From: Bacteroidetes bacterium RIFCSPLOWO2_12_FULL_35_15
GTDB taxonomy: Bacteria; Bacteroidota; Bacteroidia; 2-12-FULL-35-15
DNA length: 64,000 nucleotides
Direction: 5' to 3'
Assembly (NCBI GenBank): GCA_001769385.1
Contig: MEPB01000006.1
Location: forward strand, 24,182-88,181
Made by a program: the position numbers and the translations under genes. The notes below the pieces were generated by a model. The model had not been told where the DNA came from. It saw nothing but the letters and a program-made list of their open reading frames with translations, and made no database searches. Shown here piece by piece: positions 12,298 to 33,045 of the stretch (positions are counted from its first letter, which is position 1; every line of letters starts with the position of its first letter).

Positions 12298-12325
12298 TTT
12301 TTTTTGCGTTTAAGTATTTGATTAT
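12298..12325 (-). promoter_or_regulatory. Conserved upstream motif copy (variant).
   Basis: Plus-strand tttttttttgcgtttaagtatttgatt immediately 5' of the 12297 start codon. Confidence 0.4.
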
Positions 12326-12694
12326 TAATTATTTAACACCATAAAGATACAAAACAACAAAACGTTTTCCAAATTTTTACAAACTTTAATAACCTGATAC
12401 ACAGACGCTTACAACTATTTTAACATGATTTATATCACCTTTTACGCAAATAAATTGCATAACTTTTTGATTTTTAGAGCCTTAAATAATTTTTTCTTTT
12501 CAAAAACACAAAAATATCTCGATAGAGCCCGTCACGCGCTATGGAAGAAATGGAAGTTTCCAAAATTTAAAAACGTTATATGAGCCGTATCTATTGATAG
12601 TAGAGGGGTTTAAAGCCTTTGAACGCCTTATTTGATAGGTGTTACAGGGTTGCACATAAAAAAACAGTCCTTAGGGTAGTGATGCTGTGAAAGT

Positions 12695-14200
12695 TTATTG
12701 TGGTAAGTTGTAGTCTCCGGATGATGTACTTAAACTTCCTGCATACTTAGCGAATCCAAGTGTATCATGTGCATCACTAAAGTGTGTAGTCTCGGACTGA
12801 TCTAATTTCTTTACGCGCTCAGGGCGCTTATCTTTCTCAAATCCATTCTTACCTTCAACTATACCGGCATTGTTCATGGATAGTATCAGGTGCTTACAGT
12901 TAGACTCGTTATACCTGAACACAGGCAACCTACTGTCATTCTCCTGATGTGCCAGGTACCAGAAGTTATATCTATCCTTATGATCAGGAATAGGCCCTAT
13001 ATCATGCTCATTGATAGTCCACTTATTAGCCGTAAGCACTCTAACTACCATATCCCTGAATGTCTCAGTATGTCCTCTGCCTTTAGCAGATTGATCATAG
13101 TAGTAGTTAACTACCTTGCAACCGTGCTCCTTATAATAGTCGCACCAATCCTGTATAGTAGTGTCAATGTTGAATGGCGAAAGTCTGTGCAATGCACTGA
13201 GGTATCTGAACTCACGGCCTACCTCCTGGCATGTAACCACGCCATTGAATGACGCACCATAATCACATGCGATATCCAGTGGCTCTGAATGAACACGGTC
13301 GCCATCGGCTAAGCAATTAGCTGCTTTCGCTTTTGCAAAGTTATAATCAAGCGATATCAGGAATGAGTTATTGAAAGCATCACGACAATGTTTATCCTCT
13401 TTAAATTGCGGATAAAAGCCTCCTTCGATTCTTCCCGGGCGAATGTTTAGAATTTCCGCATCATAAATCATTTTAGTAAGTACGCGCTTATTTTCCTTAA
13501 ACCATTTAGCACCAAGATTTTTAAAGTTGTGGAACGCATCAGCACGCAGATACATGATACTTGCCGGATCCTTGATCGCTTCCTCTTCCATTTTAAACAA
13601 CCACTTTCCTTTTGCAGTCATTGGAACAGATGTTGCGTACAGCGTATTTTCATGAAGCGGTGACTTTCCGAATATATCTTTATTCCCCCTTATGGTCGCA
13701 CCAACATTGTTGAATAACCGATCGTAATCAAACAATGCGGCCTCATCACCTATGGCGCCATCCACATTATTACCACGACCACCATCAACCATGTCTAAAG
13801 AAACCATCACAAACGTTGTCCCATTAAACCAGTGGATCGCATTGGTATAATCTAAAATAGGCTCATAAGCTTCTTTCCATTTCCATTTTGCCGGTGCTCT
13901 TCGCCCAACAAAATAATGCTTGTCTTTATAATATCCTAAGCGCGCGAATCCCTGAATGGTAGATGGTAGTGTTCGCGTAAGCATTTGGGAATAAGTTGCA
14001 CCAACCAGGGCAATTTTAGAACGCGGAAGCTCTGTAACAAAGTCAACTGCCTTCTTAGCAATTACGGTACTCTTACCTGTTCCGCGCGCCCACTCCAGAA
14101 ATATATGAGGCTGTGGAGCCATGATTGCCAATACCTGTGGAATATTGTATTCAATTGGATCCTGTTCGCCAATAATATATTTTGAGTAGTGTACTGCCAT
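12695..14200 (-). CDS. terL: Terminase large subunit.
   Basis: Walker A LEWARGTGKST and Walker B IGDEAAL; 501 aa. Confidence 0.8.
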   Translation of the reverse strand: MAVHYSKYIIGEQDPIEYNIPQVLAIMAPQPHIFLEWARGTGKSTVIAKKAVDFVTELPRSKIALVGATYSQMLTRTLPSTIQGFARLGYYKDKHYFVGRRAPAKWKWKEAYEPILDYTNAIHWFNGTTFVMVSLDMVDGGRGNNVDGAIGDEAALFDYDRLFNNVGATIRGNKDIFGKSPLHENTLYATSVPMTAKGKWLFKMEEEAIKDPASIMYLRADAFHNFKNLGAKWFKENKRVLTKMIYDAEILNIRPGRIEGGFYPQFKEDKHCRDAFNNSFLISLDYNFAKAKAANCLADGDRVHSEPLDIACDYGASFNGVVTCQEVGREFRYLSALHRLSPFNIDTTIQDWCDYYKEHGCKVVNYYYDQSAKGRGHTETFRDMVVRVLTANKWTINEHDIGPIPDHKDRYNFWYLAHQENDSRLPVFRYNESNCKHLILSMNNAGIVEGKNGFEKDKRPERVKKLDQSETTHFSDAHDTLGFAKYAGSLSTSSGDYNLPQ

Positions 14201-14802
14201 TATTTAACCTCCTCCGACTCTACATCTTCAACATCCTTGAAATTCAACATCTTTGATGGCATTTTTGCAGATAGATTAATTGCTCCATCTTTCAGTAATG
14301 AAACCAGTTGTTTTTGTAGGTCGGAAGGTAAAACAATGCTGTATTTGTGTGGCTCAAAGTCGCTGAAATCAGGCATGTCGTTCATGTCTAATTCAGGACC
14401 AACAATTTCAAGATGACATTTCAATGCCATACTTATTTTTTTGTTATCCCTTGAATTAAGTGCTATCTCAAGGTTTTTACGACTTAACTCCAACAGATAT
14501 GCAATTTCATACGGTCGATTAACCTTAATCATCTGACCAAAAATATATTGCGTTTCAGCAATGCAATACCTGGCCTTACGTTCGGACATTTCGTATTTAT
14601 CTTTCAGGAATCCAATCACCGCTGAATGCTGATTATAGCGCATCAGCATGTTATTGATAATAATATACCGTTCGTAATTCTCGCGCGTTTTTGCAGGCAA
14701 TTTGCTATCATCCGGATTCTCCAGGAATGCAATGATCAGATCTGCTTCCCGGAAGCCTTTTAAATTTTTAGCTGAAGGAATTAATTTTCTGTTTTTTTTC
14801 AT
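14200..14802 (-). CDS. Putative terminase small subunit.
   Basis: 200 aa, directly upstream of TerL and overlapping it (ATGA), with an acidic C-tail. Confidence 0.4.
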   Translation of the reverse strand: MKKNRKLIPSAKNLKGFREADLIIAFLENPDDSKLPAKTRENYERYIIINNMLMRYNQHSAVIGFLKDKYEMSERKARYCIAETQYIFGQMIKVNRPYEIAYLLELSRKNLEIALNSRDNKKISMALKCHLEIVGPELDMNDMPDFSDFEPHKYSIVLPSDLQKQLVSLLKDGAINLSAKMPSKMLNFKDVEDVESEEVK

Positions 14803-15059
14803 ACGCTGATACCATGAAGTTTTGTGTTTTCAATTATCTGCAGGGCTGAAATTTGTGCCGGTGACGAACCATTAATTGCCAGCTCAAATACACTTCTTCT
14901 TACCAAAGCTTCTTGCTTTAATCTTCCGCGCTGATAATGAATCTTGAAGTCTTTATTATCAATAGATTTCTCTTCTAATTCAAGGATAATCGCAATTTCT
15001 TTTGGAGAAAAGAAAAGTCCGGCATACTGCTCAACTTGGTTTTGAACTTCTGTATTCAT
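14799..15059 (-). CDS. Hypothetical small protein (possible HTH).
   Basis: 86-aa ORF coupled to the TerS-like gene. Confidence 0.3.
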   Translation of the reverse strand: MNTEVQNQVEQYAGLFFSPKEIAIILELEEKSIDNKDFKIHYQRGRLKQEALVRRSVFELAINGSSPAQISALQIIENTKLHGISV

Positions 15060-15071
15060 GTTTTTAAACTT

Positions 15072-16275: not shown

Positions 16276-16318
16276 ACCGTAAACTTACAGTATGGAAATT
16301 TCCAATCAGAGGACAACC

Positions 16319-16777: not shown

Positions 16778-16799
16778 AAAAATAATTTAAAACCCTAAA

Positions 16800-16997: not shown

Positions 16998-17033
16998 TTT
17001 AAATAGATATTAAATGAATACTTGATTGAATTA

Positions 17034-17997: not shown

Positions 17998-19068
17998 TTA
18001 CGCCTGATCGTTAACGTAAAGTGTTTCAAGGTCAGATATTTCGCAACCTTGTCTCCACTTAACAATAGCTTTGTAGCCATGCAAGGTATCAACCACTTTA
18101 CCAATCTTGTTAAAGTCGCCTTCCATGTTGGTACCGAAAGCAAGGTTCTCGCGTTGTGTTACAATAACACGTCCGCTGTCTCCCATCCAGGTGCATTCTT
18201 CAATACCCCATTTTTTACCGCTTCCGTAGATGTACTTTTTACCATCACCCATATCGGATGTAGCAACTGTACCATAAGTAGTACGCTCATGTTCAACATA
18301 CGCGCGGAATACATCAGGTGCAACACGGAATGTACCACCCAAATTACGGTGAGTAACAGTCATTCCATTGTACATCAACTCCAGTTTTGTTAATGCGTTT
18401 GCATTGGTGATTGCACCGGTAGCAATCAGGTTTGCACCTGCAATTCCACCTCCGGTAATTTCATCAGCAATGATGGTTCCCCATCCTGAAGAAATCACAA
18501 CATCATCCGCATCAACCCATTTTGCAGGGTGAGTAGCAGGAGATTCACCAGCAGCAGTGATCACTGCACATTTGTAAACTACTTCTCCATAATTTACATA
18601 ATCACCTACAGCATACGCTAACAAAGCGTCAAACGCAGCAGCATTTCCGTTGTAGTCACTCAAATAAATGTTGTCATTTATTTCCTGAGCAATTTTTTTC
18701 ATTTCCTGTTCCCAGATCCATTGAGAAAACGGAATGTCTTTCGCGTTTGGGTCCAACTGATCTCCTGCAAAAGTTCCGCGGGCCTCTTCCGGGATGATGG
18801 TAATGATTTTCATTCCTTCATACACCAATAATTTTCTGCCTGAAAAATCACGATTAGTTCCTTTCGGAGTTTCCACGTTCAGGTTCAAAGGACGGATTCC
18901 TTTGTTTACAGTCATTTTTGGTAATAACATACCAAATGATGATACGTTACGTAATACACGAACTTGTGGAATGAAATCCATTCCGTTCAATGCTTGTGCA
19001 ATCAATTGCTTGTCGAACTGACCAGCGTATTTTAGGATTGCATCAAATGTTGTTGCTTTTGTTGCCAT
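17998..19068 (-). CDS. Putative major capsid protein.
   Basis: 356 aa, immediately downstream of the prohead protease-scaffold gene; its position and size fit an HK97-like MCP. Confidence 0.5.
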   Translation of the reverse strand: MATKATTFDAILKYAGQFDKQLIAQALNGMDFIPQVRVLRNVSSFGMLLPKMTVNKGIRPLNLNVETPKGTNRDFSGRKLLVYEGMKIITIIPEEARGTFAGDQLDPNAKDIPFSQWIWEQEMKKIAQEINDNIYLSDYNGNAAAFDALLAYAVGDYVNYGEVVYKCAVITAAGESPATHPAKWVDADDVVISSGWGTIIADEITGGGIAGANLIATGAITNANALTKLELMYNGMTVTHRNLGGTFRVAPDVFRAYVEHERTTYGTVATSDMGDGKKYIYGSGKKWGIEECTWMGDSGRVIVTQRENLAFGTNMEGDFNKIGKVVDTLHGYKAIVKWRQGCEISDLETLYVNDQA

Positions 19069-19132
19069 TATTTTTTTAATTAATTGTGAATACTATTTTT
19101 TTACTTTTTTACTGATTGCGTTTAAGGCTATT

Positions 19133-20452
19133 TTATTTGCGTGGACCGTAAAGCTTTTCGCGTGAAGCGCGTACTTCATCATCCACATCACAGGAGAAAT
19201 CGGATTCTTTTTCTTCTGCAGTCGTGGTGTCGGTAACTTTTTTTATAGGAGCTGTTGCACCCGGATGTTTCGCTTTCAAATCAGCTAACTCAGTATCGGC
19301 ACTTGTTTTTGCTGTAGTTAGTGTTTGAATAGAAGTGTTGGCGGTTGCCAATTCTCCTTCAGCTTTTTCAGCGCGTGCAATAGCTGCCGTTAAATCTGTT
19401 TTTGCTTGAGCAAGCGTTGCAAGCTCCGCGTTCATCTGACTTAAATGATCTTCAGTCAAAACCGTTTCATCGGCTTTAAAAGTGGAATCTTTACCAGAAA
19501 AAAAGGCCGTAATTGCAGCCCAACTTAATTTTGATTTCATGTTTGATTGATTTTGGTTTGTATTACTTGATTGATTGAACTCTTGTGAATTGGCAAGCTC
19601 CTGAGCGCGCGCAATAGCTTCATCGAATGTTTTAAATCCATCTATAAGCCCGACACTGATTGCGTCCTGAGCCATAAACATTTTCCCTGATAAAGTTTCT
19701 TTTTGATTTAGTCTATCGCCCCTGTTTGATTTTACAGCTCCTACAAATACATCATTGATAGAATTCAGCGTTGCTTTAAGCGCATCGTATTTACCCTGCC
19801 TGGCTTGTATAAACTCTTGATTTTTTTGAGTACTTGCATCAGCATATATTTCATGAAAAACGACACCTTGCTTTTCATACATCGCTTGGAGATCTGCAAA
19901 ACTTACCATTGTACCAATGCTTCCTATACGGTCCGTTTTGTTGGATGCGTAAATTTCAGTTGATGCAGAAGCAAACCAATAGCCTGCGCTTGCGAGCAAT
20001 CCATCGACAAGAGTAAGTACAGGTTTTTGAGTTTTCGCTGCGAGAACAGCCTCGTGAAGCCCTTCTGTTCCATTTACTGTCCCTCCGGGAGTATCATCTA
20101 CCATCAGGATAGAACCAATATTAGGATTAGCAGCAGCAGACTGAACTAATGAAATATATGTTTGTGTTCCAGGAGCTCCGCAATTATCGTGTTTCATGAT
20201 CGGACCAGAAACATATATTACAGCTGTTGAACGGGAAGAAGAGTTGCTAAATGGTTTTGTGTCTTTTGAAGAAAAAGAAACGGCTCCAACGTTATCTATT
20301 GAAAAGTATTTTGCAACGACATTTTCTTTATCTAATACATTGAAGTTTCCTTTTAGAATACTATCTATTAAAAGAAACTGAGAATCTGCGTATGACTTTT
20401 CAATCAACCAGATACCATTTGTAATTTCTAAAAAAATATTATGTTTTGACAT
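19133..20452 (-). CDS. S49 (SppA/ClpP-fold) prohead protease fused to a coiled-coil scaffold-like C-terminus.
   Basis: SppA-like core (TLVDGLLASAGYWFASAS...IGSIGTM) and a C-terminal Ala/Glu/Leu/Thr-rich heptad region. Confidence 0.7.
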   Translation of the reverse strand: MSKHNIFLEITNGIWLIEKSYADSQFLLIDSILKGNFNVLDKENVVAKYFSIDNVGAVSFSSKDTKPFSNSSSRSTAVIYVSGPIMKHDNCGAPGTQTYISLVQSAAANPNIGSILMVDDTPGGTVNGTEGLHEAVLAAKTQKPVLTLVDGLLASAGYWFASASTEIYASNKTDRIGSIGTMVSFADLQAMYEKQGVVFHEIYADASTQKNQEFIQARQGKYDALKATLNSINDVFVGAVKSNRGDRLNQKETLSGKMFMAQDAISVGLIDGFKTFDEAIARAQELANSQEFNQSSNTNQNQSNMKSKLSWAAITAFFSGKDSTFKADETVLTEDHLSQMNAELATLAQAKTDLTAAIARAEKAEGELATANTSIQTLTTAKTSADTELADLKAKHPGATAPIKKVTDTTTAEEKESDFSCDVDDEVRASREKLYGPRK

Positions 20453-21507: not shown

Positions 21508-21539
21508 AAATAGCGAGTTAGGTTAGTATCTGTTTTTTT

Positions 21540-21930
21540 TCTGGACTACTGGACTGAATACATTTATACATAGTAATTTACCAATAAACACTGGACTTTG
21601 CAATAGTCCAGACGATTTTTTTTGAAAAGCACTGTTAAACAGTCCAATTGACGATATTCAATTAAATATATTGATGCTCTAAGTATTCCGATCATAAAAA
21701 AAGTGGACTATTTTCGCTTAGTCCACAATAGGACTAATTAGTACTATTTTAAAAACCACTTAAAAGCACTGCCATTATTGCAGCACATAAACATTCAGTC
21801 CAAAAGTCCACTTTTTTACATCTTTTATAGGTGACTATTAAACAAAGAAATAAGGAATAAAAAAGAATATATATACTGTATGCGCTGATCTAAAAATTTA
21901 CATCAGAAAACATCACAAGTGGACTTATTG
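21540..21930. repeat. Iteron-like cluster of about 11 TGGACT/AGTCCA hexamers (many as GTGGACT/AGTCCAC) in a 610-bp non-coding gap.
   Basis: ctggactactggactg, cactggactt, atagtccagac, acagtccaatt, agtggactat, ttagtccacaatAGGACTaat, ttcagtccaaaagtccactt, agtggacttatt. Confidence 0.6.
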
Positions 21931-22016
21931 CATTGGCGGGCTTCTTTTGACACCCCTGCGCTAAAAACAACCTTTCAGGGGAGAGGGGTAAAGGGGAGAG
22001 GAAGGTAAATTAAAGG

Positions 22017-22049
22017 CATAAAAAAGGCTCAACAATGTACTGTTGAGCC
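22017..22049 (-). terminator. Rho-independent terminator for the 22120..22608 gene.
   Basis: Perfect hairpin GGCTCAACAatgtacTGTTGAGCC, with a T-run on the minus strand (A-run 22017-22025 on plus). Confidence 0.6.
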
Positions 22050-22119
22050 AAATTAATAAGATACATCCCATTGTGTGAGATACGCGCTAAGAAGTTACAT
22101 TACTGTGTTTGATTCAAGT

Positions 22120-22608: not shown

Positions 22609-22760
22609 ATTTCAAATTTATTAATTATTTACCAATTTCAATACATGTAAAATCAATTTGCTCTACTCCCGGGTGTTCTGCAAACTGCCAGATGCCTACA
22701 ATTTCATAAGTGCCTAGTTTCGAAATATAAATCAGTTTCCCTGATTCCGATATAAACAAG

Positions 22761-23767: not shown

Positions 23768-23790
23768 TGCTTTGCGTTTAAGGGTTATTA
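23768..23790 (-). promoter_or_regulatory. Conserved upstream motif (minus-strand sense ...TAATAACCCTTAAACGCAAAGC-aATG).
   Basis: One of at least 9 copies of the motif (TT)GCGTTTAAGG(G)TT found 1-12 nt upstream of minus-strand start codons. Confidence 0.45.
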
Positions 23791-24121: not shown

Positions 24122-24145
24122 TTTGTTTTGCGTTTAAGGGTTTAT
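24122..24145 (-). promoter_or_regulatory. Conserved upstream motif copy.
   Basis: Plus-strand tttgttttgcgtttaagggtttat immediately 5' of the 24121 start codon. Confidence 0.45.
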
Positions 24146-24153: not shown

Positions 24154-24426
24154 TTATTTATAGTGGTATTTCTTGAATTTCTCATAAAGTACATCAGCAG
24201 CTGCTCTCACTTCATCAATTGTTTTTCCTTTTAATTTTTCCAGCTCATCATAAAGCTTATCGGCTTGTTTTCTGTTTTTAAAGACAATTGGAAATTTAAA
24301 CTCTCCGGATTTCTTTTTTCCAAATCTTAGCACTGGACAGTATAAGTCGATATACGGTTTTTTTATAGTCATCATGGGCTGCAAGTGAACAAATCTTAGT
24401 GCTTCTGTTTGATTTAAATTTTTCAT
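24154..24426 (-). CDS. Hypothetical protein.
   Basis: 90-aa ORF preceded by a motif variant (cgtttaaggttagtatc). Confidence 0.35.
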   Translation of the reverse strand: MKNLNQTEALRFVHLQPMMTIKKPYIDLYCPVLRFGKKKSGEFKFPIVFKNRKQADKLYDELEKLKGKTIDEVRAAADVLYEKFKKYHYK

Positions 24427-24621
24427 TTTTTTTCGTTTAAGGTTAGTATCTCAATTTTCTCTTTTAACTCAATTATTTTTTGAATATATTCAGCTTGCTC
24501 AGCAGCAATTTTCTTATTCAGATTATTGCCAATTGTAATTAACTCAGTTGAGTTTTTATCTGTTATTAATGCTGCTGTTAGAATAGCTGCGTGTATTTCG
24601 TTTTTTGAAGTTTTTCATGGT

Positions 24622-25853: not shown

Positions 25854-26159
25854 CTATGTAAATATTAATCGTTTATTTTCTTTGATAATTTTTGATTCAA
25901 AAGGAAATCCATTTTCAGGGACCTGCTGGATCTGATCCATCAAGGCGCCCGAACCGGTAAATACAACATGATATGCTGCACCAATCATAATTTGTAAATG
26001 CAAACACTTTCCATTGCTTTTATCCTTTGCGTATTTTGATTCTACAATCCGGAAAGCGTGCACCATTATTTTATTATTCAGGATGTTATCCATTTCTATT
26101 TTGGTTCCGATAAAAGATTTTGAAGCAGTTTCGATACCGAATTCGCTAAACTTTTTCAT
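25854..26159 (-). CDS. Hypothetical protein.
   Basis: 101-aa ORF directly downstream of the RT. Confidence 0.35.
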   Translation of the reverse strand: MKKFSEFGIETASKSFIGTKIEMDNILNNKIMVHAFRIVESKYAKDKSNGKCLHLQIMIGAAYHVVFTGSGALMDQIQQVPENGFPFESKIIKENKRLIFT

Positions 26160-27105
26160 TTGCTATTTTCTTTTTTAGATTAATACAATTGGCGTGATTT
26201 AACCATCCATTATAGGATGCTAATGATTGCCGGTTTTTGTTTTTGGATATCATCCGGAAACAGTTTTGTTTTATTCGCTTCCTTAATCGAACATGTGTGT
26301 GGTAAAATACATAACCAACAAAATCAACTCCGCGATATTCAACCGGAAATACCTGGTAGTTTTTTTTAACTGTTAATTTTAAATGTTCCTGCATGTATTT
26401 TTTTATATCAGCAAGGATGGCGTGTAAATAGGGTTTATTATCAGAAAGGATCACAATATCATCAGCATACCGGAAATAATACTTCACTGCTTTATCTTCT
26501 TTTATCCAGTGATCGAGATAGGTGAGATAGAAATTTGCAAAATATTGACTTAAATAATTTCCAATTGGTAGTCCCGGTGCGCTATCAATAATTTCATCAA
26601 GCAAAATCAATAAATCAACATCCTTTATTTTTTTTCGAAGCATGTATTTTAAAATATCATGATTCACATTCGGATAAAACTTCGTTACGTCAAGTTTTAA
26701 GCAATATTTTGTTCCCTGCTTATCAACTAATGCTTTTTTGAATGAACGTACGGCTGCATGTATTCCTTTCCCTTTTATACAGCTATATGTATCCGCAGTA
26801 AATGTTGAAACAAAAATCTTTTCCATTACATTCATAATCGCATGATGAACAATTCGATCAGGAAAGTATGGCAAACAAAATATTTCGCGTGGCTTAGGAT
26901 CTGTAATCATAAAAGTTTTATACTCGGATGTTTTATAGGTTTTGTTTTTCAGCGATTCATGAAGCTGTAGTATTTTTTCTTCACGATTCTTATCAAATAG
27001 CTGAACACCGTATTGATGTTTTTTGCCTTTTCTGGCATTTGCATCAGCAGCATATAAATTTTCAATGCTGATGATCTTATCGTATATGTTTCCTGTTCTT
27101 TTCAT
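26146..27105 (-). CDS. Diversity-generating-retroelement-type reverse transcriptase. The likely true start is Met at 27105; the ORF track extends it to 27309 across the TR-like repeat.
   Basis: N-terminal MKRTGNIYDKIISIENLYAADANARKGK, the catalytic FRYADDIVIL, and the DGR-diagnostic LPIGNYLSQYF (I/LGxxxSQ in place of the group II QG motif). About 320 aa and no maturase or endonuclease domain. Confidence 0.75.
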   Translation of the reverse strand: MKRTGNIYDKIISIENLYAADANARKGKKHQYGVQLFDKNREEKILQLHESLKNKTYKTSEYKTFMITDPKPREIFCLPYFPDRIVHHAIMNVMEKIFVSTFTADTYSCIKGKGIHAAVRSFKKALVDKQGTKYCLKLDVTKFYPNVNHDILKYMLRKKIKDVDLLILLDEIIDSAPGLPIGNYLSQYFANFYLTYLDHWIKEDKAVKYYFRYADDIVILSDNKPYLHAILADIKKYMQEHLKLTVKKNYQVFPVEYRGVDFVGYVFYHTHVRLRKRIKQNCFRMISKNKNRQSLASYNGWLNHANCINLKKKIANEKV

Positions 27106-27215
27106 TCCTTTGCTTTCACGGTCGTTTTCGTTTTCACTACCAACGCCCAATCTTTTAAACTTTATTTTTTGCCCTGTTGGCAAGGTTTGCATTGTTATTA
27201 AATTATTCCCAGCAT

Positions 27216-27284
27216 AGGTGGGAGCCGCAATCCGTACCCGTGTGCCAACCATCGTAATTCGAGTACGAGAAGCCGAAGCCCGAC
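27216..27284 (-). repeat. Copy A of a 69-bp repeat, the DGR template-repeat (TR) candidate. It lies in a non-coding context 5' of the RT.
   Basis: aggtgggagccgcaatccgtacccgtgtgccaaccatcgtaattcgagtacgagaagccgaagcccga. Its flanks are unique and its 3' (sense) end differs from copies B and C. Confidence 0.55.
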
Positions 27285-27321
27285 ACATCAAACAGCTCAT
27301 CCAATGCACAACCCAATTTCA

Positions 27322-27696
27322 TTACATTAAATAATAATCAATGTATAGTTGTTTAAATTGCTCTACCGCATATAAGCATAAATCACTTGATTTAAAGCAA
27401 AGGCGGGAGCCGCAATACGTAAGCGTGCTCCAACCAGCGTAAGCCGAGTCCGAGACGCCGAAGCCCGATGGCTTTTCGTTAGAGGCATCTACTTCAAACC
27501 ATGGGAAGTATTTCCATTCATTTTTATTATTCCAGTTTGGTTCCCATCCTTCATTCAATGCCTGAGTGATGATGATAAGTTTATAATGGGATAACAAAGC
27601 TTTCTGATGCTTTTCAGGAAGCGCACTTACATCAGGTAATGTTTCAGAAGTGTTTAATGCTTTGCACGCATCTTCAAATGTTTTGATTTTGTTCAT
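27322..27696 (-). CDS. DGR variable target protein 2 (small; C-terminal variable region).
   Basis: Paralogue of 27704..28189 (IKTFEDAC, NEGWEPNWNN..EWKYFPWFE). Its C-terminal ...PSGFGVSDSAYAGWSTLTYCGSRLCF is encoded by repeat copy B. Confidence 0.6.
   Translation of the reverse strand: MNKIKTFEDACKALNTSETLPDVSALPEKHQKALLSHYKLIIITQALNEGWEPNWNNKNEWKYFPWFEVDASNEKPSGFGVSDSAYAGWSTLTYCGSRLCFKSSDLCLYAVEQFKQLYIDYYLM
27401..27469 (-). repeat. Repeat copy B, the variable-repeat (VR) candidate at the 3' end of target 2.
   Basis: aggcgggagccgcaatacgtaagcgtgctccaaccagcgtaagccgagtccgagacgccgaagcccga. Confidence 0.6.
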
Positions 27697-27703
27697 TTGT
27701 TTA

Positions 27704-28189
27704 TTATTTGATTGTTAAAAATTGATTGTATAAGTCGATGAATTGTGTCCCGGCATAAATGGCTAACTCTTTATTTTTAAAGCAAAGGCGGGAGCCGCAA
27801 GTCGAATGCGTGAACCAAATACCGTAATCCGAGTACGAGAAGCCGAAGCCCGACTTGTTTGCTTCAAACCAAGGGTAATATTTATATTCACTGGAGTTGT
27901 TCCAATCCGGCTTCCACCCTTCGTTCAATGATCTATTGATGATTGAAATTTTCAGAAATGCTTGCGCAGCCAATAATTCTTCATCAACTCCACTATAATT
28001 CAATAATATTGACTGGCTTTCTGTAGTTCCAACTTCATCACATGCATCTTCAAATGTTTTTATTCGATCCATAATGTTTTGTGAAAGGATCTCTTTGCCG
28101 ATTAAATTTTCAAGCAAAGATTTTCCGCTTTTGTCAGCGGATCTGTATGCTTTTAAGGCATTTGATTTTTTAATGTTGATTGTTCCCAT
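27704..28189 (-). CDS. DGR variable target protein 1 (small; C-terminal variable region).
   Basis: Its C-terminal ...KSGFGFSYSDYGIWFTHSTCGSRLCF is encoded by repeat copy C. Confidence 0.6.
   Translation of the reverse strand: MGTINIKKSNALKAYRSADKSGKSLLENLIGKEILSQNIMDRIKTFEDACDEVGTTESQSILLNYSGVDEELLAAQAFLKISIINRSLNEGWKPDWNNSSEYKYYPWFEANKSGFGFSYSDYGIWFTHSTCGSRLCFKNKELAIYAGTQFIDLYNQFLTIK
27786..27854 (-). repeat. Repeat copy C, the VR candidate at the 3' end of target 1.
   Basis: aggcgggagccgcaagtcgaatgcgtgaaccaaataccgtaatccgagtacgagaagccgaagcccga. Confidence 0.6.
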
Positions 28190-28256
28190 TTTGGTTTTTT
28201 GTTTAAGGTTTATATTTATTTAATATTCATTTTTGAAAATTTGCTTTTCATAAAAC

Positions 28257-31200
28257 TCAAAACGGCATATCATCACTCTTCTTAGGCAATACACCAACTT
28301 TCGAATCAAACACCGTAAAGTATTCTACATTATTTCGTTTATCGCGGCCGCCATCTTTATCACCGGTATCGTTATTTGCAATGGTTGGATTAAATACATA
28401 TCCTTTGTATAAGCAATATCTTTTTATCGAACGCTTGAATACACGCGTATCCATGTATTTATTTTGTTTTTGTTCTGGGAATGCTGCATAGAAATCTTCG
28501 AGCATTATTTTTCTATCGAACGGTTTATTTAAGTGGTAATTAATTTTTCCTGTTTGTGCATCATCCTCGTTATCGTGATCATAATACGATTCTGCCCACT
28601 CAAGAAAGATCTCACCAATTTGCTGACGTAACCTGCGTTTTTCCAAACGTTCCATTGGAGCTTCAACCAAACCGTGTTCAAAATAAATTTGTACACAGTT
28701 GGCAGCGAAATTGTAAAATCGATTCCACTGGTCATCGCTCCACTCGCTAAAAAACATGCAGCCGTGTTCATCAACCGGTTGATATTTTGCACTGTAATAA
28801 TCACTGAAAGCCATTTTAAACTGACGCGCTTCAAAACTTCCACCTTCGCCATTCAGCGCATGGTTAGTCGTTATTAAAATCTTTGGTGATTCTTCAGGTG
28901 TTAATCTGAAGGAAGGCTTACCTTTTGGATTTATTTTCCAGTTTCCGCCAATGTGACTAAACCAGTTTTCGAAATCGAAATTCACTCGCACGTCATCAAT
29001 ATTCACAACGCGTGTTCGCTCGTTTACTTCTTCCAGGATAAATTTATCTTCAGCGATATCCTTTTGTTTTCCCGGGATAATAACAGTCGGAATAAGTTTT
29101 TCAAGAGCTGTACCGTTTAATGATTTTCCGCTGCGTCCATTACTATCTCCAACTTCCGATTGAACGCCATCCATGGCAATTACTGCTTTTGCTCTGTTTG
29201 CATCAAAATAATCATGAAGTAAAAAACCGAAGCCACAGCATTTATTTATAAAGTGCATCATCAGATCTTCTTTTTTCAGATCCGACAATTCTGTTTTTGG
29301 AGTATTCGGTTTTTTGATTTTAAAAATGCCTTCATGCGTATCGCGCCAGTGGAAATTACTGGTGTTCATGTAATATTGATAAAACATACATTTCTCAGCT
29401 TCTTCTTTTCCTTGCGGGTATTCAATGCTGAATTTTTTATCTGCATCCTGTTTTACTCTTATGTTTAAAGGTTTTATTGTTGCGCTGAAATCTTTTATCT
29501 TATCTTTCCATACATGGCCATCCAGTTCGGTTATTTGTTTTTCTTCAACTCCTTCAGATGTAATTTTCCAGTACACTTTGTTAAAATACATAAACTGGAT
29601 TCCTTTATCCGATTTGTGAAATTTTAGTGTAATAAAATCGAGGTTGTTAAAATTGTCCAGGTACATGCGATATCCTCTGAAAAACATTTCCTGAACATTC
29701 TTTTTCTGCAAAGCAAACTTTACAAAATCACTTAAATAATCTTTGATTTGCGAAGGCTTTACAACTCGCACAACGTTATCTTCAACGCGGATAAAATTAA
29801 ATTCACCATCTCCCTGTAATGCGTACCGGCCAAACTTTTTATTTTGAAGGAACATGCAGCACTCTACATATTTAAAAGTGGTTACAGTTTCGGTACCATC
29901 GCCTTTTTTCTTGGTGTATTCTTCCCAGAACTGTTCTTCATGCGAAATTGGTTGCGCAAGCTCCAGTTCGTTTTCTTCATTAAAATGAAATTTTTCACGG
30001 CCAATCAAAAACACTTTTCGTTCCTTCAATAAGTCCATGTGATGTTTGGCAAACTCCACATTACTATCCAGGTGAAAGAATTCTTTGCGTAATTTAAATT
30101 CGTTATACGCTGTAATATTGTGGCAATTCACGTAATGTCCAATTCCTTGCGGATGCAATTTTGCATCTTCAAAATCTTTCAGGAACAGATCTTCCTGGCC
30201 CTCTAGTGTGTATTTCAATAAATCATCAACGCCCTTTTGTTTATGTTCTTTGCGCACATACGCAAAATAAATTTGCAAGTGGATCCCGGAACTGTTTAAC
30301 GCATGAAAATATTTACGGAAATTCATAATAGCAGCAACGAAGCTTCTTGGCCGCTGATCTACCGGAGCATCAATACTTGATCCGATATCGCAAAAGTCAG
30401 CATCAACAAAAAATACCACTTCTTCTACTTCGCATTGCTTTACAATCAGTTGGTATTCGTGTGCTAACTGTCCGCTGTTAGCGATATTGTGAATACCCAT
30501 GATGCCAACACTATCTAAACCGTGTTTCGTGCTTTTGTCGGCTTTTTTTTCGCCTTCCTGAGTAGCCAGGCATTTTATTTTAATTCTGTTTTTATATTTA
30601 GTGCGGATGGTTTTATTAATCCAAATTCGGGATCCCGAATTGTAGGGGCTTTTATATTTAGTGGGCCGTCCGTTTTTATCAGGCCATAACTCAGGATGTT
30701 GGTAGCGGATTCGAATAAGCGGAAAATCTTTAGATGTTCCTTTTCGATTATACAACATCGGATTGTTATTCAAATCCATGTAATGCAAAATCATATCATC
30801 ACCACTGGGATCAATTTCCCAACGCTCGTTCAGTGTTCCTTTTTGATATCGGTCAATTTCAATGGTAGTTTCATCGTTATTCCCTTTTTTCTCATCACGC
30901 TGATCAGCATCATTTAATCCGGAAGCCGCTAATTGTTGATCGCGGAAACTACTTTGTTTCTCAGCTTTCTTTTCTTTTTTAGCTGGCTGCTTTGGTTGTA
31001 TTAATGGTAATTCTGCTTGTTCGTATTCCAGATTTATATTTAGTCTGTCTGCTAAAAACTTCATGGTTTGCAACCAATCCAAGTTTTTAACTTTCGTTAC
31101 AAAACCAACATAACCAACACCGGCAGTATCACAGCTCCAACACTTCCATATTCCTTTTTGCTTACTTACATTAAATTTCTTTTTTGAATTGCAAAACGGA

Positions 31201-31307
31201 CAATCCCCAACTCCTTTATTTGACAGGGTAACATAATCACCAATCACATCCAGGATAGCTCCTTTGGTTTCAATTTCTATTTTACAATTTTCGGTTATAT
31301 AGGTCAT
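28257..31307 (-). CDS. DNA primase-helicase (zinc-finger primase N-terminus plus P-loop helicase C-terminus).
   Basis: CPFCNSKKKF...KCWSC zinc motif, and Walker A GDSNGRSGKS in the C-terminal half; 1016 aa. Confidence 0.7.
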   Translation of the reverse strand: MTYITENCKIEIETKGAILDVIGDYVTLSNKGVGDCPFCNSKKKFNVSKQKGIWKCWSCDTAGVGYVGFVTKVKNLDWLQTMKFLADRLNINLEYEQAELPLIQPKQPAKKEKKAEKQSSFRDQQLAASGLNDADQRDEKKGNNDETTIEIDRYQKGTLNERWEIDPSGDDMILHYMDLNNNPMLYNRKGTSKDFPLIRIRYQHPELWPDKNGRPTKYKSPYNSGSRIWINKTIRTKYKNRIKIKCLATQEGEKKADKSTKHGLDSVGIMGIHNIANSGQLAHEYQLIVKQCEVEEVVFFVDADFCDIGSSIDAPVDQRPRSFVAAIMNFRKYFHALNSSGIHLQIYFAYVRKEHKQKGVDDLLKYTLEGQEDLFLKDFEDAKLHPQGIGHYVNCHNITAYNEFKLRKEFFHLDSNVEFAKHHMDLLKERKVFLIGREKFHFNEENELELAQPISHEEQFWEEYTKKKGDGTETVTTFKYVECCMFLQNKKFGRYALQGDGEFNFIRVEDNVVRVVKPSQIKDYLSDFVKFALQKKNVQEMFFRGYRMYLDNFNNLDFITLKFHKSDKGIQFMYFNKVYWKITSEGVEEKQITELDGHVWKDKIKDFSATIKPLNIRVKQDADKKFSIEYPQGKEEAEKCMFYQYYMNTSNFHWRDTHEGIFKIKKPNTPKTELSDLKKEDLMMHFINKCCGFGFLLHDYFDANRAKAVIAMDGVQSEVGDSNGRSGKSLNGTALEKLIPTVIIPGKQKDIAEDKFILEEVNERTRVVNIDDVRVNFDFENWFSHIGGNWKINPKGKPSFRLTPEESPKILITTNHALNGEGGSFEARQFKMAFSDYYSAKYQPVDEHGCMFFSEWSDDQWNRFYNFAANCVQIYFEHGLVEAPMERLEKRRLRQQIGEIFLEWAESYYDHDNEDDAQTGKINYHLNKPFDRKIMLEDFYAAFPEQKQNKYMDTRVFKRSIKRYCLYKGYVFNPTIANNDTGDKDGGRDKRNNVEYFTVFDSKVGVLPKKSDDMPF

Positions 31308-31320
31308 AAATAATTTATAA

Positions 31321-31632
31321 TTAGGTTAGTCCATCACAAAAGTTTGACAAGGCATGATCTATTTGATCTAATAAGTCTTCATGTTTTTCAATTGTCATTG
31401 AACTTTTTATTGTTTCCGAAGGAAAATTTTTAGCACGCAAAACAATTGCTTTGCTTTTTATTCTTAATGCCTCAAGTCCTTCAATAATCAATTTTTCATC
31501 TGTAGCAGTTAATCTTAAATTAATTGAGCGGTCATTTTCTCTTTCAATTGGCGAACTATAAATACCCGAACTATATTCTTTTTGGCGGGCAAGCTCCATT
31601 GCTTTTTTTGTAAAATCGGATATCTCAGTCAT
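31321..31632 (-). CDS. Hypothetical protein.
   Basis: 103-aa ORF. Confidence 0.35.
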   Translation of the reverse strand: MTEISDFTKKAMELARQKEYSSGIYSSPIERENDRSINLRLTATDEKLIIEGLEALRIKSKAIVLRAKNFPSETIKSSMTIEKHEDLLDQIDHALSNFCDGLT

Positions 31633-31635
31633 GGT

Positions 31636-31824
31636 TTAATAAATTTTTAATATTCCGTTATGTGATTTTCCTTCTAAATCTTCAATTGCACTTTCTACGC
31701 CTGCTTTCAAGTAACCATAAGCTACCGCAGCATTATATTCGCGGCTATTTTCCTCTGCTCTGTTTAAATTATGTTTTAAATAATTTATAAGGCTTTGTTT
31801 TTCTTTTGCTGATAATCCTGCCAT
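31636..31824 (-). CDS. Hypothetical small protein.
   Basis: 62-aa ORF. Confidence 0.3.
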   Translation of the reverse strand: MAGLSAKEKQSLINYLKHNLNRAEENSREYNAAVAYGYLKAGVESAIEDLEGKSHNGILKIY

Positions 31825-32078
31825 TGTTATAATTTTTAGTTATATAATTCTATTAGTTGAAGCATTACATTAGCGCGCTTTTCAATCACTTTTAATTTCT
31901 GATGAACATGCTGCAGTAATCTTTTTTGTTTAATTTTCTTTTGCTGATGCCAGCGCTGTTTGTTGGTGAATACTGTCATGGGCTATAAATGGTTTATAAT
32001 GCGGACGGCTTAAAGTCAGGTAGCACTGCCATTGAAATATAATTTCGTCTAATGCTTTTTCGATGTCAGATTTCTTTT

Positions 32079-32393
32079 TCATCGTTTATAAGATCTGGCA
32101 ACATCAATGATCATATTTAATTTTTCCAACTCACCGGCATAAGATCTATTAGTCATCACCGGAAGAATATTTTTCAGATCCTCTTCATGAAAATTAACCA
32201 GCCAGCATATTTGAAACATAGTATATTTCGAACAATCCTTTCCAACCGATTTATACAAATCATACACCTTAGCCATCGATCTTGCAACCTGTGGTTTTTT
32301 ATAGTGATCGCTTAATTTTTCCAATACACGCTTATGGTTTATCCACAATTGTATTTTAAAAGCAAATTGCTGTTTAGTTAGTGGCTGATTCAT
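32079..32393 (-). CDS. Hypothetical protein.
   Basis: 104-aa ORF. Confidence 0.35.
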   Translation of the reverse strand: MNQPLTKQQFAFKIQLWINHKRVLEKLSDHYKKPQVARSMAKVYDLYKSVGKDCSKYTMFQICWLVNFHEEDLKNILPVMTNRSYAGELEKLNMIIDVARSYKR

Positions 32394-32664
32394 TTTCGAT
32401 AGAATTAGTAAGGTTTACAACTAATTGAATAAGGTCGTTTACGGTTTTTAATTTATTTACATCATCGTATGCCAATGCTATTTCAAATGCGCTTTCTACT
32501 TCATAACCTATGGTCATCATATCTAATGAATCAGCTCCAATGTCTTCTGCAAAGCGTGATGTTTCGGTAATTTGTGAAACCGGTGTTCCGGTCACATCAA
32601 AAATTATTTCAATAATTTTCTTTTCCGGTTGTAGTCTGTTTATTTCTGTCATGGTAGGTATCAT
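32374..32664 (-). CDS. Acyl-carrier-protein-like (phosphopantetheine-attachment) protein.
   Basis: FAEDIGADSLDMMTIGYEVESAFEI matches the ACP DSLD Ser motif and helix II. Confidence 0.45.
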   Translation of the reverse strand: MIPTMTEINRLQPEKKIIEIIFDVTGTPVSQITETSRFAEDIGADSLDMMTIGYEVESAFEIALAYDDVNKLKTVNDLIQLVVNLTNSIENESATN

Positions 32665-33020
32665 TAGAAGTTTAGGTGTAAATGTTTTTCAATAAATATG
32701 GAGTAGGGGTGAACGGCAATAAAGCCCCATCTGCGTGCAGTATCAACTTCCATTTTTGCACCTTCTGATTGATCCCAATCATTTAGAGTTACCAATACAT
32801 CAGCAACAGGTAATACTTGAAAACAAGCACGCATACAAGCTAACCAGTGTTCGTGATCGCTTGTGTAAAATTCCCGTGGAATCGATTGGCAGATCTCATG
32901 TGGATTTAACACAATGTATCCCAGCGTTTCGAGGTTTTTTTGTGCTTCTTCAAATGTTACGAAGTTTCCGCCTATCACTTTGGAAATCGGGCCAGAGATG
33001 TAAATTGTTTTTTTACTCAT
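32664..33020 (-). CDS. DUF4406/nucleoside-2-deoxyribosyltransferase-like protein.
   Basis: N-terminal MSKKTIYISGPIS... Confidence 0.4.
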   Translation of the reverse strand: MSKKTIYISGPISKVIGGNFVTFEEAQKNLETLGYIVLNPHEICQSIPREFYTSDHEHWLACMRACFQVLPVADVLVTLNDWDQSEGAKMEVDTARRWGFIAVHPYSIFIEKHLHLNF

Positions 33021-33045
33021 AATTGTTTTGCGTTTAAGGGTTAGT
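33021..33045 (-). promoter_or_regulatory. Conserved upstream motif copy.
   Basis: Plus-strand aattgttttgcgtttaagggttagtatt immediately 5' of the 33020 start codon. Confidence 0.45.

What the first reader, a model, noticed from the sequence alone, without database searches (positions are those of the whole stretch)
12298..33045. Recurrent about 18-nt motif immediately upstream of at least 9 prophage start codons
On the plus strand, the sequence (T)TGCGTTTAAGG(G)TT(A) lies 1-12 nt from the ATG of minus-strand genes. Copies: 12298 (variant ...gcgtttaagtatttg), 19105 (upstream of the capsid gene), 21512 (variant gagttaggttagtatc), 23768, 24122, 24427 (cgtttaaggttagtatc), 28190 (tgtttaaggtttat), 31308 (aattaggttagtcc) and 33021. 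In gene sense it reads ...AACCCTTAAACGCAAAAC-(n)-ATG. It is absent from the host genes at 41-64 kb. It does not match the Bacteroidota sigma-A -7 TAnnTTTG or -33 TTTG elements. It could be a phage-specific promoter for an alternative sigma factor or phage RNAP, a site for a translational regulator, or an RNA processing signal.
Basis: seen in the sequence. Interest (0 to 1): 0.55.

Follow-up and report, generated by a model that had tools for sequence, protein, structure and literature searches.

The report
Start-codon-linked repeat in a Bacteroidota prophage
A 13-base sequence (CTTAAACGCAAAA in gene sense) sits 2-5 bases before the start codon of six prophage genes, recurs unchanged in a distant relative, and is most likely a sequence-specific form of the Bacteroidota ribosome-binding region, much like the unexplained "start-associated sequences" of mycobacteriophages.

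Summary
The motif is real and far beyond chance. CTTAAACGCAAAA has 3 exact and 2 one-mismatch copies, all on the gene strand and all 2-5 nt before an ATG (expected 0.004 exact, 0.13 within one mismatch). Six copies are firmly linked to a start codon. One good copy (19114-19126) lies 45 nt from the next ATG. The two "variants" (21507, 31307) share only the 5' half, ACTAACC.

A phage with 46% primase identity and 8 points higher GC carries 4 exact, 1 one-mismatch and 1 two-mismatch copy, all before ATGs of mostly non-orthologous genes. Among about 240 other relatives, only three show one or a few copies.

The TTAAA of the motif falls at -14 to -17. In 1238 upstream regions from relatives, TTAAA peaks at -16/-15, matching the published A-rich non-Shine-Dalgarno ribosome-binding site of Bacteroidota. 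Motif leaders are unusually unstructured. The motif is not a TAnnTTTG promoter, has no Shine-Dalgarno core, has no copy in the repressor/cro region, and no sigma factor or RNA polymerase gene was found.

The best reading is a translation-initiation element with extra sequence-specific positions. It resembles Cluster K mycobacteriophage start-associated sequences but has no Shine-Dalgarno core. A promoter or processing role is not excluded.

The parts
33026..33038 (-). Exact 13-mer CTTAAACGCAAAA, 5 nt before ATG 33020 (DUF4406 / nucleoside 2-deoxyribosyltransferase-like gene, 32664-33020). Preceded by the ACTAACC module (33039-33045).
33057..33068 (-). Inverted repeat CTCCCCCCGGAG, 18 nt upstream of the first motif copy. 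The pair hairpin + CCTTAAACGC is kept at the orthologous place in L121, L128 and L212.
28195..28207 (-). Copy CTTAAACAAAAAA (2 mismatches), 5 nt before ATG 28189. This is the first gene of the reverse-transcriptase cassette (phrog_11581).
24429..24441 (-). Copy CTTAAACGAAAAA (1 mismatch), 2 nt before ATG 24426 (90-aa ORF). Preceded by GATACTAAC.
24126..24138 (-). Exact copy, 4 nt before ATG 24121 (109-aa ORF). The whole intergenic gap is 32 nt.
23770..23782 (-). Copy CTTAAACGCAAAG (1 mismatch), 2 nt before ATG 23767 (230-aa ORF, phrog_874). The intergenic gap is 24 nt.
19114..19126 (-). Orphan copy CTTAAACGCAATC (first 11 nt exact). It starts 6 nt after the stop codon of the S49 protease gene and lies 45 nt before ATG 19068 of the probable capsid gene. 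No start codon is adjacent.
12302..12314 (-). Exact copy, 4 nt before ATG 12297 (130-aa ORF, phrog_19224). It lies in a 397-nt gap after the large terminase gene. A TAnnTTTG box sits about 195 nt upstream (12509-12516).
21508..21530 (-). Partial copy GATACTAACCTAACTCGCTATTT directly before ATG 21507. It shares the 5' module with the 24426 and 33020 copies. The ortholog in L213 carries CCTAAACGCAAAAaaatATG.
31308..31330 (-). Partial copy ACTAACCTAATTATAAATTATTT directly before ATG 31307 (primase). It has the 5' module only and overlaps the end of the upstream gene.
11842..11854 (-). Doubtful copy CTCAAACGCAAAT (2 mismatches), just after a terminator-like GGGGCGTTTTTT and about 120 nt before ATG 11720. 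It may be a chance match.

Best explanation
The motif is a start-associated element that acts on the mRNA at translation initiation.

Its core, (C)TTAAAC, followed by an A-run, is the Bacteroidota type of ribosome-binding region. That type has an A/U-rich 'TAAAAA' core about 9-16 nt before the start codon and adenines at -3 and -6. It is read without Shine-Dalgarno pairing, probably through protein bS1 and an open mRNA conformation.

In this phage lineage, a subset of mostly early or accessory genes carry one fixed version of that region, (ATAC)TAACC(C)TTAAACGCAAAA-N2-5-ATG. This gives them a common, very accessible initiation site.

The positions that the generic signal does not need (CC before TTAAA, CGC after it) are nevertheless kept identical in a distant relative with a different GC content. 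I therefore infer that something reads the sequence specifically: a host or phage protein, or an RNA. That would allow coordinate control of these genes.

Shown: the copies, their strand, their spacing, their conservation, the register match to the family-wide signal, and the low predicted structure.

Inferred: that ribosome binding is the function, and that a specific reader exists.
For: - Spacing is fixed. There are 2-5 nt between the 13-mer and the ATG in 6 window copies, and 2-3 nt in all 6 L121 copies.
- All copies are on the sense strand: 0 on the other strand within one mismatch.
- The register matches the general signal. In 1238 non-redundant upstream regions from low-GC (42% or less) related loci, including host flanks, A reaches 0.50-0.57 at -14..-11 and is raised at -6 and -3. 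TTAAA peaks at -16/-15 (44 and 39 against about 7). CTTAA peaks at -17 (20 against about 2). The motif's TTAAA lies at -14 to -17. This agrees with the published Bacteroidota non-SD RBS: 'TAAAAA' about 9 nt from the start, found before internal operon genes and so 'cannot be a promoter' (PMC6028130), and A at -3, -6, -12, -13 (PMC6847099).
- Gaps are too short for separate promoters (24 and 32 nt; in L121 the motif begins 10 nt after a stop), and three consecutive genes each have a copy.
- Motif leaders are unstructured. Mean unpaired probability from -20 to +3 is 0.81 against 0.55 for the other 40 phage genes (P=3e-5). MFE is -2.9 against -7.6 kcal/mol.
- Selection acts on the exact sequence. 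L121 has 46% primase identity and 44-45% GC against 37%, yet has 4 exact copies before mostly non-orthologous genes.
- Other Bacteroidota phages have their own repeated sequence close to start codons: AAAACTAAAAAA-ATG, AAATCAAACAAAC-ATG, AAACCCC-N6-8-ATG.
Against: - The copy at 19114-19126 has no start codon within 45 nt.
- In L212 the conserved CCTTAAACGC abuts the ATG directly, so the register is not kept there.
- A generic initiation-region weight matrix ranks the motif sites only at the 62nd-93rd percentile. 'Best possible ribosome site' therefore does not explain the conserved C and G positions.
- No candidate reader was found. The only protein shared by the two motif-rich phages and not by eight other sampled relatives has homologues in four other contigs, and none of those carries the motif.
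- No transcript or ribosome data exist for this organism.
- Pairing with rRNA could not be tested, because no 16S gene is in any fetched locus.
Confidence: 0.5

Rival explanations
1. It is a promoter, or the promoter-proximal part of one, read by an alternative host sigma factor or an unrecognised phage factor. It would give very short-leader or leaderless transcripts for each gene that carries it.
For: - The motif is about 13-25 nt long, asymmetric and in one orientation, like phage-specific promoters.
- The orphan copy before the capsid gene (19114-19126) and the doubtful copy after a terminator (11842-11854) lie 45 and about 120 nt from the next ATG. That suits a promoter better than a ribosome site.
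- The first copy follows a conserved inverted repeat that could be an operator.
- In L358 a different repeated sequence lies 8-19 nt from ATGs, a looser spacing.
Against: - PHROG or Pfam scans of about 40 ORFs gave no sigma factor or RNA polymerase.
- The motif does not resemble TAnnTTTG or TTTG. The prophage does use that box elsewhere, including directly before two ATGs (22613-22620, 11111-11118).
- Conservation between copies stops about 30 nt upstream.
- Gaps of 24-32 nt would put any upstream element inside the preceding gene.
- In F. johnsoniae 87% of mRNAs have leaders longer than 10 nt (PMC6847099).
- The tight 2-5 nt spacing has no reason under this model unless the mRNAs are leaderless, and then the spacing should be exact.
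Confidence: 0.17
2. It is a DNA site for a phage regulator, in the manner of mycobacteriophage stoperators. In those phages the immunity repressor binds many asymmetric 13-14 bp intergenic sites in one orientation and blocks elongation through the prophage.
For: - The motif is an asymmetric 13-mer, is intergenic and has one orientation relative to transcription.
- The element is a prophage with an HTH repressor-like gene (33445-33801).
- The window and L121 share a homologue of that gene at 34% identity.
- Stoperators are described in PMC9283540.
Against: - There is no motif-like site in the repressor/cro intergenic region, where a true operator is expected. The best match there has 5 mismatches.
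- L126 has an equally similar repressor homologue (33%) but no motif.
- There are only 6-7 copies.
- The strict spacing to ATG is not a stoperator property.
Confidence: 0.1
3. It is an RNA signal for processing, stability or antitermination. One version would be a boxA-like sequence next to a boxB-like hairpin after the cro-like gene, loaded once and then repeated at other places.
For: - Hairpin CTCCnnnnGGAG followed by CCTTAAACGC is conserved at the same place, after the first early gene, in four phages. Spacing to the ATG there ranges from 0 to 9 nt.
- From my own knowledge, lambda nut sites and rrn leaders combine a short linear box with a small hairpin in that region.
Against: - Only one of the 7 window copies has the hairpin.
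- The four hairpins show one G-U change and no compensatory change.
- The resemblance to boxA (CGCTCTTTAACAA) is weak and recalled from memory.
- Rfam gives nothing for the region.
Confidence: 0.1
4. It has no regulatory role of its own. It is a junction sequence left by, or used for, recombination that moves gene cassettes between phages, and it is copied together with accessory genes.
For: - The motif precedes small, poorly conserved accessory genes.
- It precedes different genes in the window and in L121.
- Relatives are highly mosaic.
Against: - A junction would not need a 2-5 nt spacing to the ATG or a single strand.
- The downstream genes in the window and L121 are mostly unrelated or only 28-46% identical, so the exact 13-mers are not recent transfers.
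- Identity would have decayed without selection.
Confidence: 0.06

Closest known systems
Start-Associated Sequences (SAS) of Cluster K mycobacteriophages (Pope et al. 2011, PMC3203893; PMC11373665; PMC12699233)
   Same: - Both are 13-nt asymmetric sequences repeated within one temperate siphovirus genome.
- Both have one orientation and lie a few nt (3-9) before start codons, nearly always ATG.
- Both occur mostly in the non-structural part of the genome.
- Both are kept across diverged relatives, in front of genes of different families.
- Both are absent from host sequence.
- Both have the host's ribosome-binding core embedded in extra conserved positions that ribosome binding does not explain.
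- Both have occasional orphan copies.
- Some copies are preceded by an inverted repeat (ESAS there, CTCCnnnnGGAG here).
- The function is still unknown there too, as of 2024-2025.
   Different: - The sequence is different: GGGATAGGAGCCC against CTTAAACGCAAAA.
- The SAS core is a Shine-Dalgarno AGGAG that can pair with 16S rRNA. Here there is no SD and the host phylum does not use SD pairing.
- There are fewer copies: 6-7 against 11-19.
- The phage lineage and host phylum are unrelated.
- Only one copy has an upstream inverted repeat.
Bacteroidota non-Shine-Dalgarno ribosome-binding region (A-rich 'TAAAAA' core; GeneMarkS-2 group B, PMC6028130; Baez et al. 2019, PMC6847099)
   Same: - The position is the same: TTAAA at -14 to -17 and an A-run from -8 to -3.
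- Both are G-poor and unstructured.
- Both are present before internal genes of operons.
   Different: - The general signal is a loose composition bias.
- Here a specific 13-25 nt sequence with fixed C and G positions is repeated exactly and conserved between distant phages.
- A generic weight matrix does not rank it exceptionally.
Stoperators of Cluster A mycobacteriophages (PMC9283540, PMC6550527)
   Same: Both are asymmetric 13-14 bp sites, occur many times per prophage, are intergenic, and have an orientation tied to the direction of transcription.
   Different: - Stoperators include a true operator at the early lytic promoter. No such copy is present here.
- Stoperators are not tied to a fixed distance from start codons.
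- Stoperators number 20-30 or more copies.
Translational operators of phage RNA-binding repressors such as T4 RegA (from my own knowledge, not tested)
   Same: Both are a shared short sequence overlapping or adjoining the initiation region of several early mRNAs.
   Different: - RegA sites are loosely conserved and overlap the AUG.
- No RegA-like gene was recognised here.
Intergenic repeats that carry promoters (halovirus HF2, PMC8707807) and mobile regulatory cassettes of T4-type phages (PMC2839356). Both are known to me only from the abstracts.
   Same: Both are repeated intergenic sequences upstream of phage genes and are linked to modular gene shuffling.
   Different: - Those repeats are 29-58 bp or stem-loop cassettes.
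- They contain recognisable promoter elements and sit further from the start codon.

Membership tests
Start-Associated Sequences (Cluster K mycobacteriophage type) | Short (13 bp) asymmetric sequence repeated many times (11-19) in one phage genome | tested here: inconclusive
   The asymmetric 13-mer is present, but there are only 5 copies within one mismatch, 7 good copies in all, and 2 partial copies. L121 has 5-6.
Start-Associated Sequences (Cluster K mycobacteriophage type) | Lies 3-9 nt upstream of the translation start codon, usually ATG | tested here: met
   There are 2-5 nt between the 13-mer and the ATG in 6 of 7 window copies and in 6 of 6 L121 copies. All starts are ATG.
Start-Associated Sequences (Cluster K mycobacteriophage type) | Single orientation relative to transcription | tested here: met
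   All copies within one mismatch are on the sense strand and none on the other. The same holds in L121.
Start-Associated Sequences (Cluster K mycobacteriophage type) | Concentrated in the non-structural half of the genome | tested here: met
   In the window, 5 of 7 good copies lie in the early region (23.7-33.0 kb). There are none in the 12 kb of tail genes in the window, or in the further 10 kb of tail genes and integrase to the left. In L121, 5 of 6 copies are in the early region and one lies at the end of the late genes.
Start-Associated Sequences (Cluster K mycobacteriophage type) | Conserved across diverged relatives in front of genes of different families | tested here: met
   The window and L121 (46% primase identity) share the exact 13-mer. 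The downstream genes are mostly non-orthologous.
Start-Associated Sequences (Cluster K mycobacteriophage type) | Absent or near-absent from the host genome | tested here: inconclusive
   The motif is absent from the 30 kb of host DNA in the window; the only hit is a 2-mismatch match inside a gene. The rest of the host genome was not available.
Start-Associated Sequences (Cluster K mycobacteriophage type) | Consensus GGGATAGGAGCCC with a Shine-Dalgarno AGGAG core | tested here: not met
   The sequence is CTTAAACGCAAAA. It has one G and no complementarity to the CCUCC anti-SD (read directly from the sequence). It is therefore an analogue, not a member.
Bacteroidota non-SD ribosome-binding region | A-rich core (TAAAAA-like) about 9-16 nt before the start, with A at -3 and -6 and few G | tested here: met
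   The motif's TTAAA lies at -14 to -17 and its A-run at -8 to -3. The family-wide profile peaks at the same positions (PMC6028130, PMC6847099).
Bacteroidota non-SD ribosome-binding region | Low secondary structure around the start codon | tested here: met
   Unpaired probability is 0.81 against 0.55 for the other genes of the prophage (P=3e-5).
Bacteroidota primary-sigma promoter | -7 element TAnnTTTG, with TTTG near -33 | tested here: not met
   No TAnnTTTG lies within 60 nt upstream of any copy. The only nearby one is a box about 195 nt upstream of the 12314 copy. The motif holds no TTTG on the sense strand.
Stoperator system (Cluster A mycobacteriophage type) | A copy acting as operator at the early lytic promoter, next to the repressor gene | tested here: not met
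   The best match in 33330-33444, on either strand, has 5 of 13 mismatches.
Stoperator system (Cluster A mycobacteriophage type) | Bound by the immunity repressor | not testable with these tools
   This needs binding assays with the 33445-33801 product.
Phage-encoded RNA polymerase promoter (T7/T3/SP6 type) | A phage RNA polymerase gene in the same genome | tested here: not met
   There is no polymerase hit in PHROG or Pfam scans. The only ORFs over 800 aa are the primase, a tail protein and the tape measure. The shared TAACCCT with the T3 promoter is a resemblance recalled from memory only.

The most novel reading that the evidence does not exclude
[quoted passage not shown] In that setting, this phage lineage marks a set of its mRNAs with a specific sequence, CC(C)TTAAACGC, that is read by a dedicated factor: a phage or host RNA-binding protein, or a segment of rRNA or a small RNA. 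This would give sequence-specific selection or timing of translation initiation. It would be a functional substitute for SD pairing, and the first handle on what mycobacteriophage start-associated sequences do.
Probability: 0.2. Interest if true: 0.8.

Novelty: new variant of a known kind. Interest (0 to 1): 0.5.

Why it matters
Start-associated sequences have been known in mycobacteriophages since 2011 and their function is still unresolved. There the ribosome-binding explanation is confounded because the motif contains a Shine-Dalgarno core.

Here the same genomic behaviour appears in an unrelated phage lineage. Its host phylum does not use Shine-Dalgarno pairing, and the motif has no such core. 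The conserved positions therefore cannot be explained by 16S pairing at the anti-SD.

That makes the question 'what reads these sequences?' cleaner. It is directly testable with reporter fusions in Flavobacterium johnsoniae or Bacteroides.

On the practical side, a compact, unstructured and portable 20-nt leader could be a useful expression part for Bacteroidota. The motif also helps to call true start codons in these prophages.

Tried and rejected
- **Megablast of 12-34 kb against INPHARED phages.** No match.
- **Exact-pattern scans of IMG/VR for the motif** **and for hairpin+motif**. Only 5 of 102 such hits are followed by ATG. Only L121's own contig has the hairpin form.
- **Candidate trans-factor.** The 90-aa protein at 24154-24426 is the only product shared by the window and L121 and not by the eight other relatives in the comparison. 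Its homologues lie in four other contigs, three of them 160-235 kb and packed with small genes. None carries the motif, so it was rejected.
- **'Ideal ribosome site' idea.** The generic weight matrix ranks the motif sites at only the 62nd-93rd percentile. It is not sufficient alone.
- **Sigma-70-type promoter scan.** It found fewer sites than the shuffled controls, so it is uninformative for this phylum.
- **TAnnTTTG scan.** None sits next to the motif.
- **Rfam at permissive E-value over 1-41 kb.** Only sub-threshold hits, none at a motif copy.
- **Pairing with 16S rRNA.** Not tested.
- **ECF-sigma reading** (AAC at -35, CGT at -10). The spacing would put the -10 on or after the ATG. Rejected by inspection.
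- **boxA and T3-promoter resemblances.** Both are recalled from memory and weak. They are kept only as leads.
- **GCAAAAACA, 8 sense-strand copies**. All are in coding sequence as Ala-Lys-Thr codons. Not a signal.

Full report
**Setting**

Window 1-33.8 kb is the larger part of a temperate siphovirus-like prophage, with nearly all genes on the minus strand. Recognised genes:
- large terminase, 12695-14200
- S49 prohead protease, 19133-20452, followed by the probable capsid gene, 17998-19068
- primase-helicase, 28257-31307
- a reverse-transcriptase cassette, 26146-28189
- a DUF4406 / deoxyribosyltransferase-like gene, 32664-33020
- a divergently transcribed HTH repressor-like gene, 33445-33801

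The next gene (34382-40633) carries a type IX secretion sorting domain and belongs to the host. The prophage continues about 10 kb to the left of the window, with tail genes, tape measure and integrase. An identical primase is on record from 'Bacteroidetes bacterium RIFCSPLOWO2_12_FULL_35_15'.

**The observation**

Read in gene sense, the motif is (ATAC)TAACC(C)TTAAACGCAAAA, followed by 2-5 nt and ATG.

The 13-mer CTTAAACGCAAAA has these copies:
- exact: 12302-12314, 24126-24138, 33026-33038
- one mismatch: 23770-23782, 24429-24441
- two mismatches: 28195-28207, 19114-19126

All are on the sense strand. Six of them end 2-5 nt before the ATG of an ORF of 90-230 aa.

A first-order Markov model of the phage sense strand expects 0.004 exact copies and 0.13 within one mismatch. 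Observed are 3 and 5. A repeat finder that knows nothing of the motif recovers four copies as a 35-nt family. At two mismatches the pattern is no longer specific, with 11 found against 5.3 expected. I therefore treat 11842-11854 as doubtful.

The copy at 19114-19126 matches the first 11 positions exactly, so it is not chance. However, it lies 45 nt from the next ATG.

That heptamer is not over-represented overall. Even so, 4 of its 5 sense-strand copies lie within 25 nt of a start codon. The ortholog of the 21507 gene in L213 is preceded by CCTAAACGCAAAAaaatATG. I regard these two sites as degenerate or partial relatives.

**Conservation**

The primase family is large in Bacteroidota phages and prophages. 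I collected about 240 related loci from viral, metagenome and genome collections.

One of them, L121, has 46% primase identity and 44-45% GC against 37% here. It carries four exact copies, one one-mismatch copy and one two-mismatch copy. All lie 2-3 nt before an ATG. Five are in the early region and one is at the end of the late genes. Most of the genes downstream are not orthologous to the window's motif genes.

At this divergence unconstrained intergenic sequence would be randomised. The exact sequence is therefore under selection.

In other relatives:
- L128 and L212 have a single copy at the orthologous place, before the DUF4406 gene. It is preceded by the same small inverted repeat, CTCCnnnnGGAG.
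- L213 has one good copy and two looser ones.
- The other relatives have none.
- Some have their own repeated sequence close to start codons: ATCATTCAAAA in L358, AAACCCC in L236, AAATCAAACAAAC in L360.
- Unrelated phage-like contigs, three of them 160-235 kb, repeat AAAACTAAAAAA-ATG.

**What it is**

The key result is the register. I took 1238 non-redundant upstream regions from the low-GC related loci, including host flanks.
- Adenine rises to 0.50-0.57 at -14 to -11, and is also raised at -6 and -3.
- TTAAA peaks sharply at -16/-15.
- CTTAA peaks at -17.
- AACC peaks weakly at -22 to -19.

This is the known ribosome-binding signal of the phylum. GeneMarkS-2 describes an A-rich non-SD motif, 'TAAAAA' in Flavobacterium, about 9 nt from the start. 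It occurs before first and internal operon genes alike, and the authors conclude it cannot be a promoter (PMC6028130). Ribosome profiling in F. johnsoniae shows that A at -3, -6, -12 and -13, and low structure, promote initiation. Most of its mRNAs are leadered (PMC6847099).

The motif places its TTAAA at -14 to -17 and its A-run at -8 to -3, which is exactly that register.

Further points in favour of a translation role:
- Motif leaders are much less structured than those of the other 40 prophage genes (unpaired probability 0.81 against 0.55, P=3e-5).
- Gaps of 24 and 32 nt leave no room for separate promoters.
- Three consecutive small genes each carry a copy.

The prophage does contain host-type TAnnTTTG boxes. 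Two of them sit 4 nt before an ATG (22613-22620, 11111-11118). These show what a start-adjacent promoter looks like in this organism, and the motif is unlike it.

**What the ribosome-site reading does not explain**

A weight matrix built from the family-wide profile ranks the motif sites only at the 62nd-93rd percentile. The conserved CC and CGC are therefore not demanded by the generic signal. Yet they are identical in a phage of different GC content. Something must read the sequence specifically.

I looked for a reader.
- No sigma factor, RNA polymerase or recognisable RNA-binding protein appeared in the PHROG or Pfam scans.
- Among the window proteins compared with ten relatives, only the 90-aa protein at 24154-24426 is shared with L121 alone.
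- Its homologues occur in four other contigs, and none has the motif. I rejected it.
- The repressor/cro intergenic region has no motif-like site. That argues against a stoperator-type repressor system.
- The motif has one G and no complementarity to the anti-SD.
- Pairing elsewhere in rRNA could not be tested, because no 16S gene was in reach.

**Comparison with known systems**

The closest match in behaviour is the Start-Associated Sequence of Cluster K mycobacteriophages. Its properties, from PMC3203893, PMC11373665 and PMC12699233:
- a 13-bp asymmetric sequence with 11-19 copies
- 3-9 bp before start codons, mostly ATG
- one orientation, in the non-structural arm
- conserved between subclusters in front of different gene families
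- absent from the host
- conservation extending beyond the ribosome-binding core
- some copies preceded by inverted repeats
- role still 'ill-defined' in 2024-2025

The present motif meets the positional, orientation, distribution and conservation criteria. It fails the sequence criterion, since it has no AGGAG core, and it has fewer copies. It is an analogue in another phylum, not a member.

In my literature searches I found no report of such an element in Bacteroidota phages. That is a limited search, not proof of absence.

**Verdict**

This is a real, selected, start-codon-linked repeat. It most likely acts in translation initiation, as a sequence-specific form of the Bacteroidota non-SD ribosome-binding region (confidence 0.5).

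Remaining alternatives and their confidence:
- promoter: 0.17
- regulator-binding DNA site: 0.1
- processing or antitermination signal: 0.1
- recombination junction: 0.06

The main obstacles to the favoured reading are the orphan copy at 19114-19126 and the L212 copy that abuts its ATG.

Noticed in passing
window 26146-28189 (minus strand); repeats at 27211-27284, 27396-27469, 27781-27854: This looks like a diversity-generating retroelement. It has a reverse transcriptase (phrog_1423, E=1e-123). A 74-nt template-like repeat lies just upstream of it. Two 82%-identical variable copies lie in the 3' parts of two paralogous target genes (phrog_11581). Mismatches are biased to template adenines: 6-7 of 13 mismatches, although A makes up only 11 of the 74 bases. 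A sub-threshold Rfam RT-17 hit lies at 27106-27187. Relatives L127, L128, L130, L132 and L213 carry the same cassette.
   Followed up: partly
window 21508-22119: A non-coding gap of about 610 nt lies before the first gene of the head module. It holds four terminator-like hairpins on the sense strand (22049-22026, 21786-21766, 21726-21703, 21611-21591). Relatives keep a gap of similar size at the same place (L126, L128, L129, L130). It could be a packaging site, a late-operon control region or a non-coding RNA.
   Followed up: no
window 33057-33068; L121 about 7010-7025; L128 about 1700-1715; L212 about 8975-8990: The inverted repeat CTCCnnnnGGAG (stem of 4-5 pairs, C-rich loop, no T-run) is conserved in four phages, directly upstream of the first motif copy, between the cro-like gene and the DUF4406 gene. 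It shows one G-U change and no compensatory change. It could be an operator, or a boxB-like or stabilising hairpin. It recalls the 'extended SAS' inverted repeats of Cluster K phages.
   Followed up: partly
window 22613-22620 and 11111-11118 (minus strand): Perfect Bacteroidota -7 boxes (TAAATTTG, TAGTTTTG) lie exactly 4 nt before the ATGs at 22608 and 11106. Given the 4-5 nt box-to-start spacing reported for F. johnsoniae, these two prophage genes may be expressed from leaderless mRNAs.
   Followed up: no
L377 (contig positions left of window base 1); window 33802-34381: The prophage extends about 10 kb beyond the left end of the window, with tail genes, a 1104-aa tape measure and an integrase at the far end. 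The whole element is about 44 kb. The right end lies between the repressor gene and a 2083-aa type IX secretion cargo gene. There is no tRNA gene in the window.
   Followed up: partly
L358, L236, L360; L373, L374 (contigs of 160-182 kb): Other Bacteroidota phages have their own sequence repeated just before several start codons: ATCATTCAAAA (8-19 nt from ATG), AAACCCC-N6-8-ATG, AAATCAAACAAAC-ATG and AAAACTAAAAAA-ATG. Start-linked 'dialects' may be common in phages of this phylum.
   Followed up: partly
window 21508-21530; L128 about 10170-10195; L126 about 19640-19664: The leader of the first head-module gene is conserved between relatives as an orthologous sequence: taacctaactcgctattt / taaccgacctctatctt / tacccaactcactctactgt. 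This is distinct from the main 13-mer.
   Followed up: no
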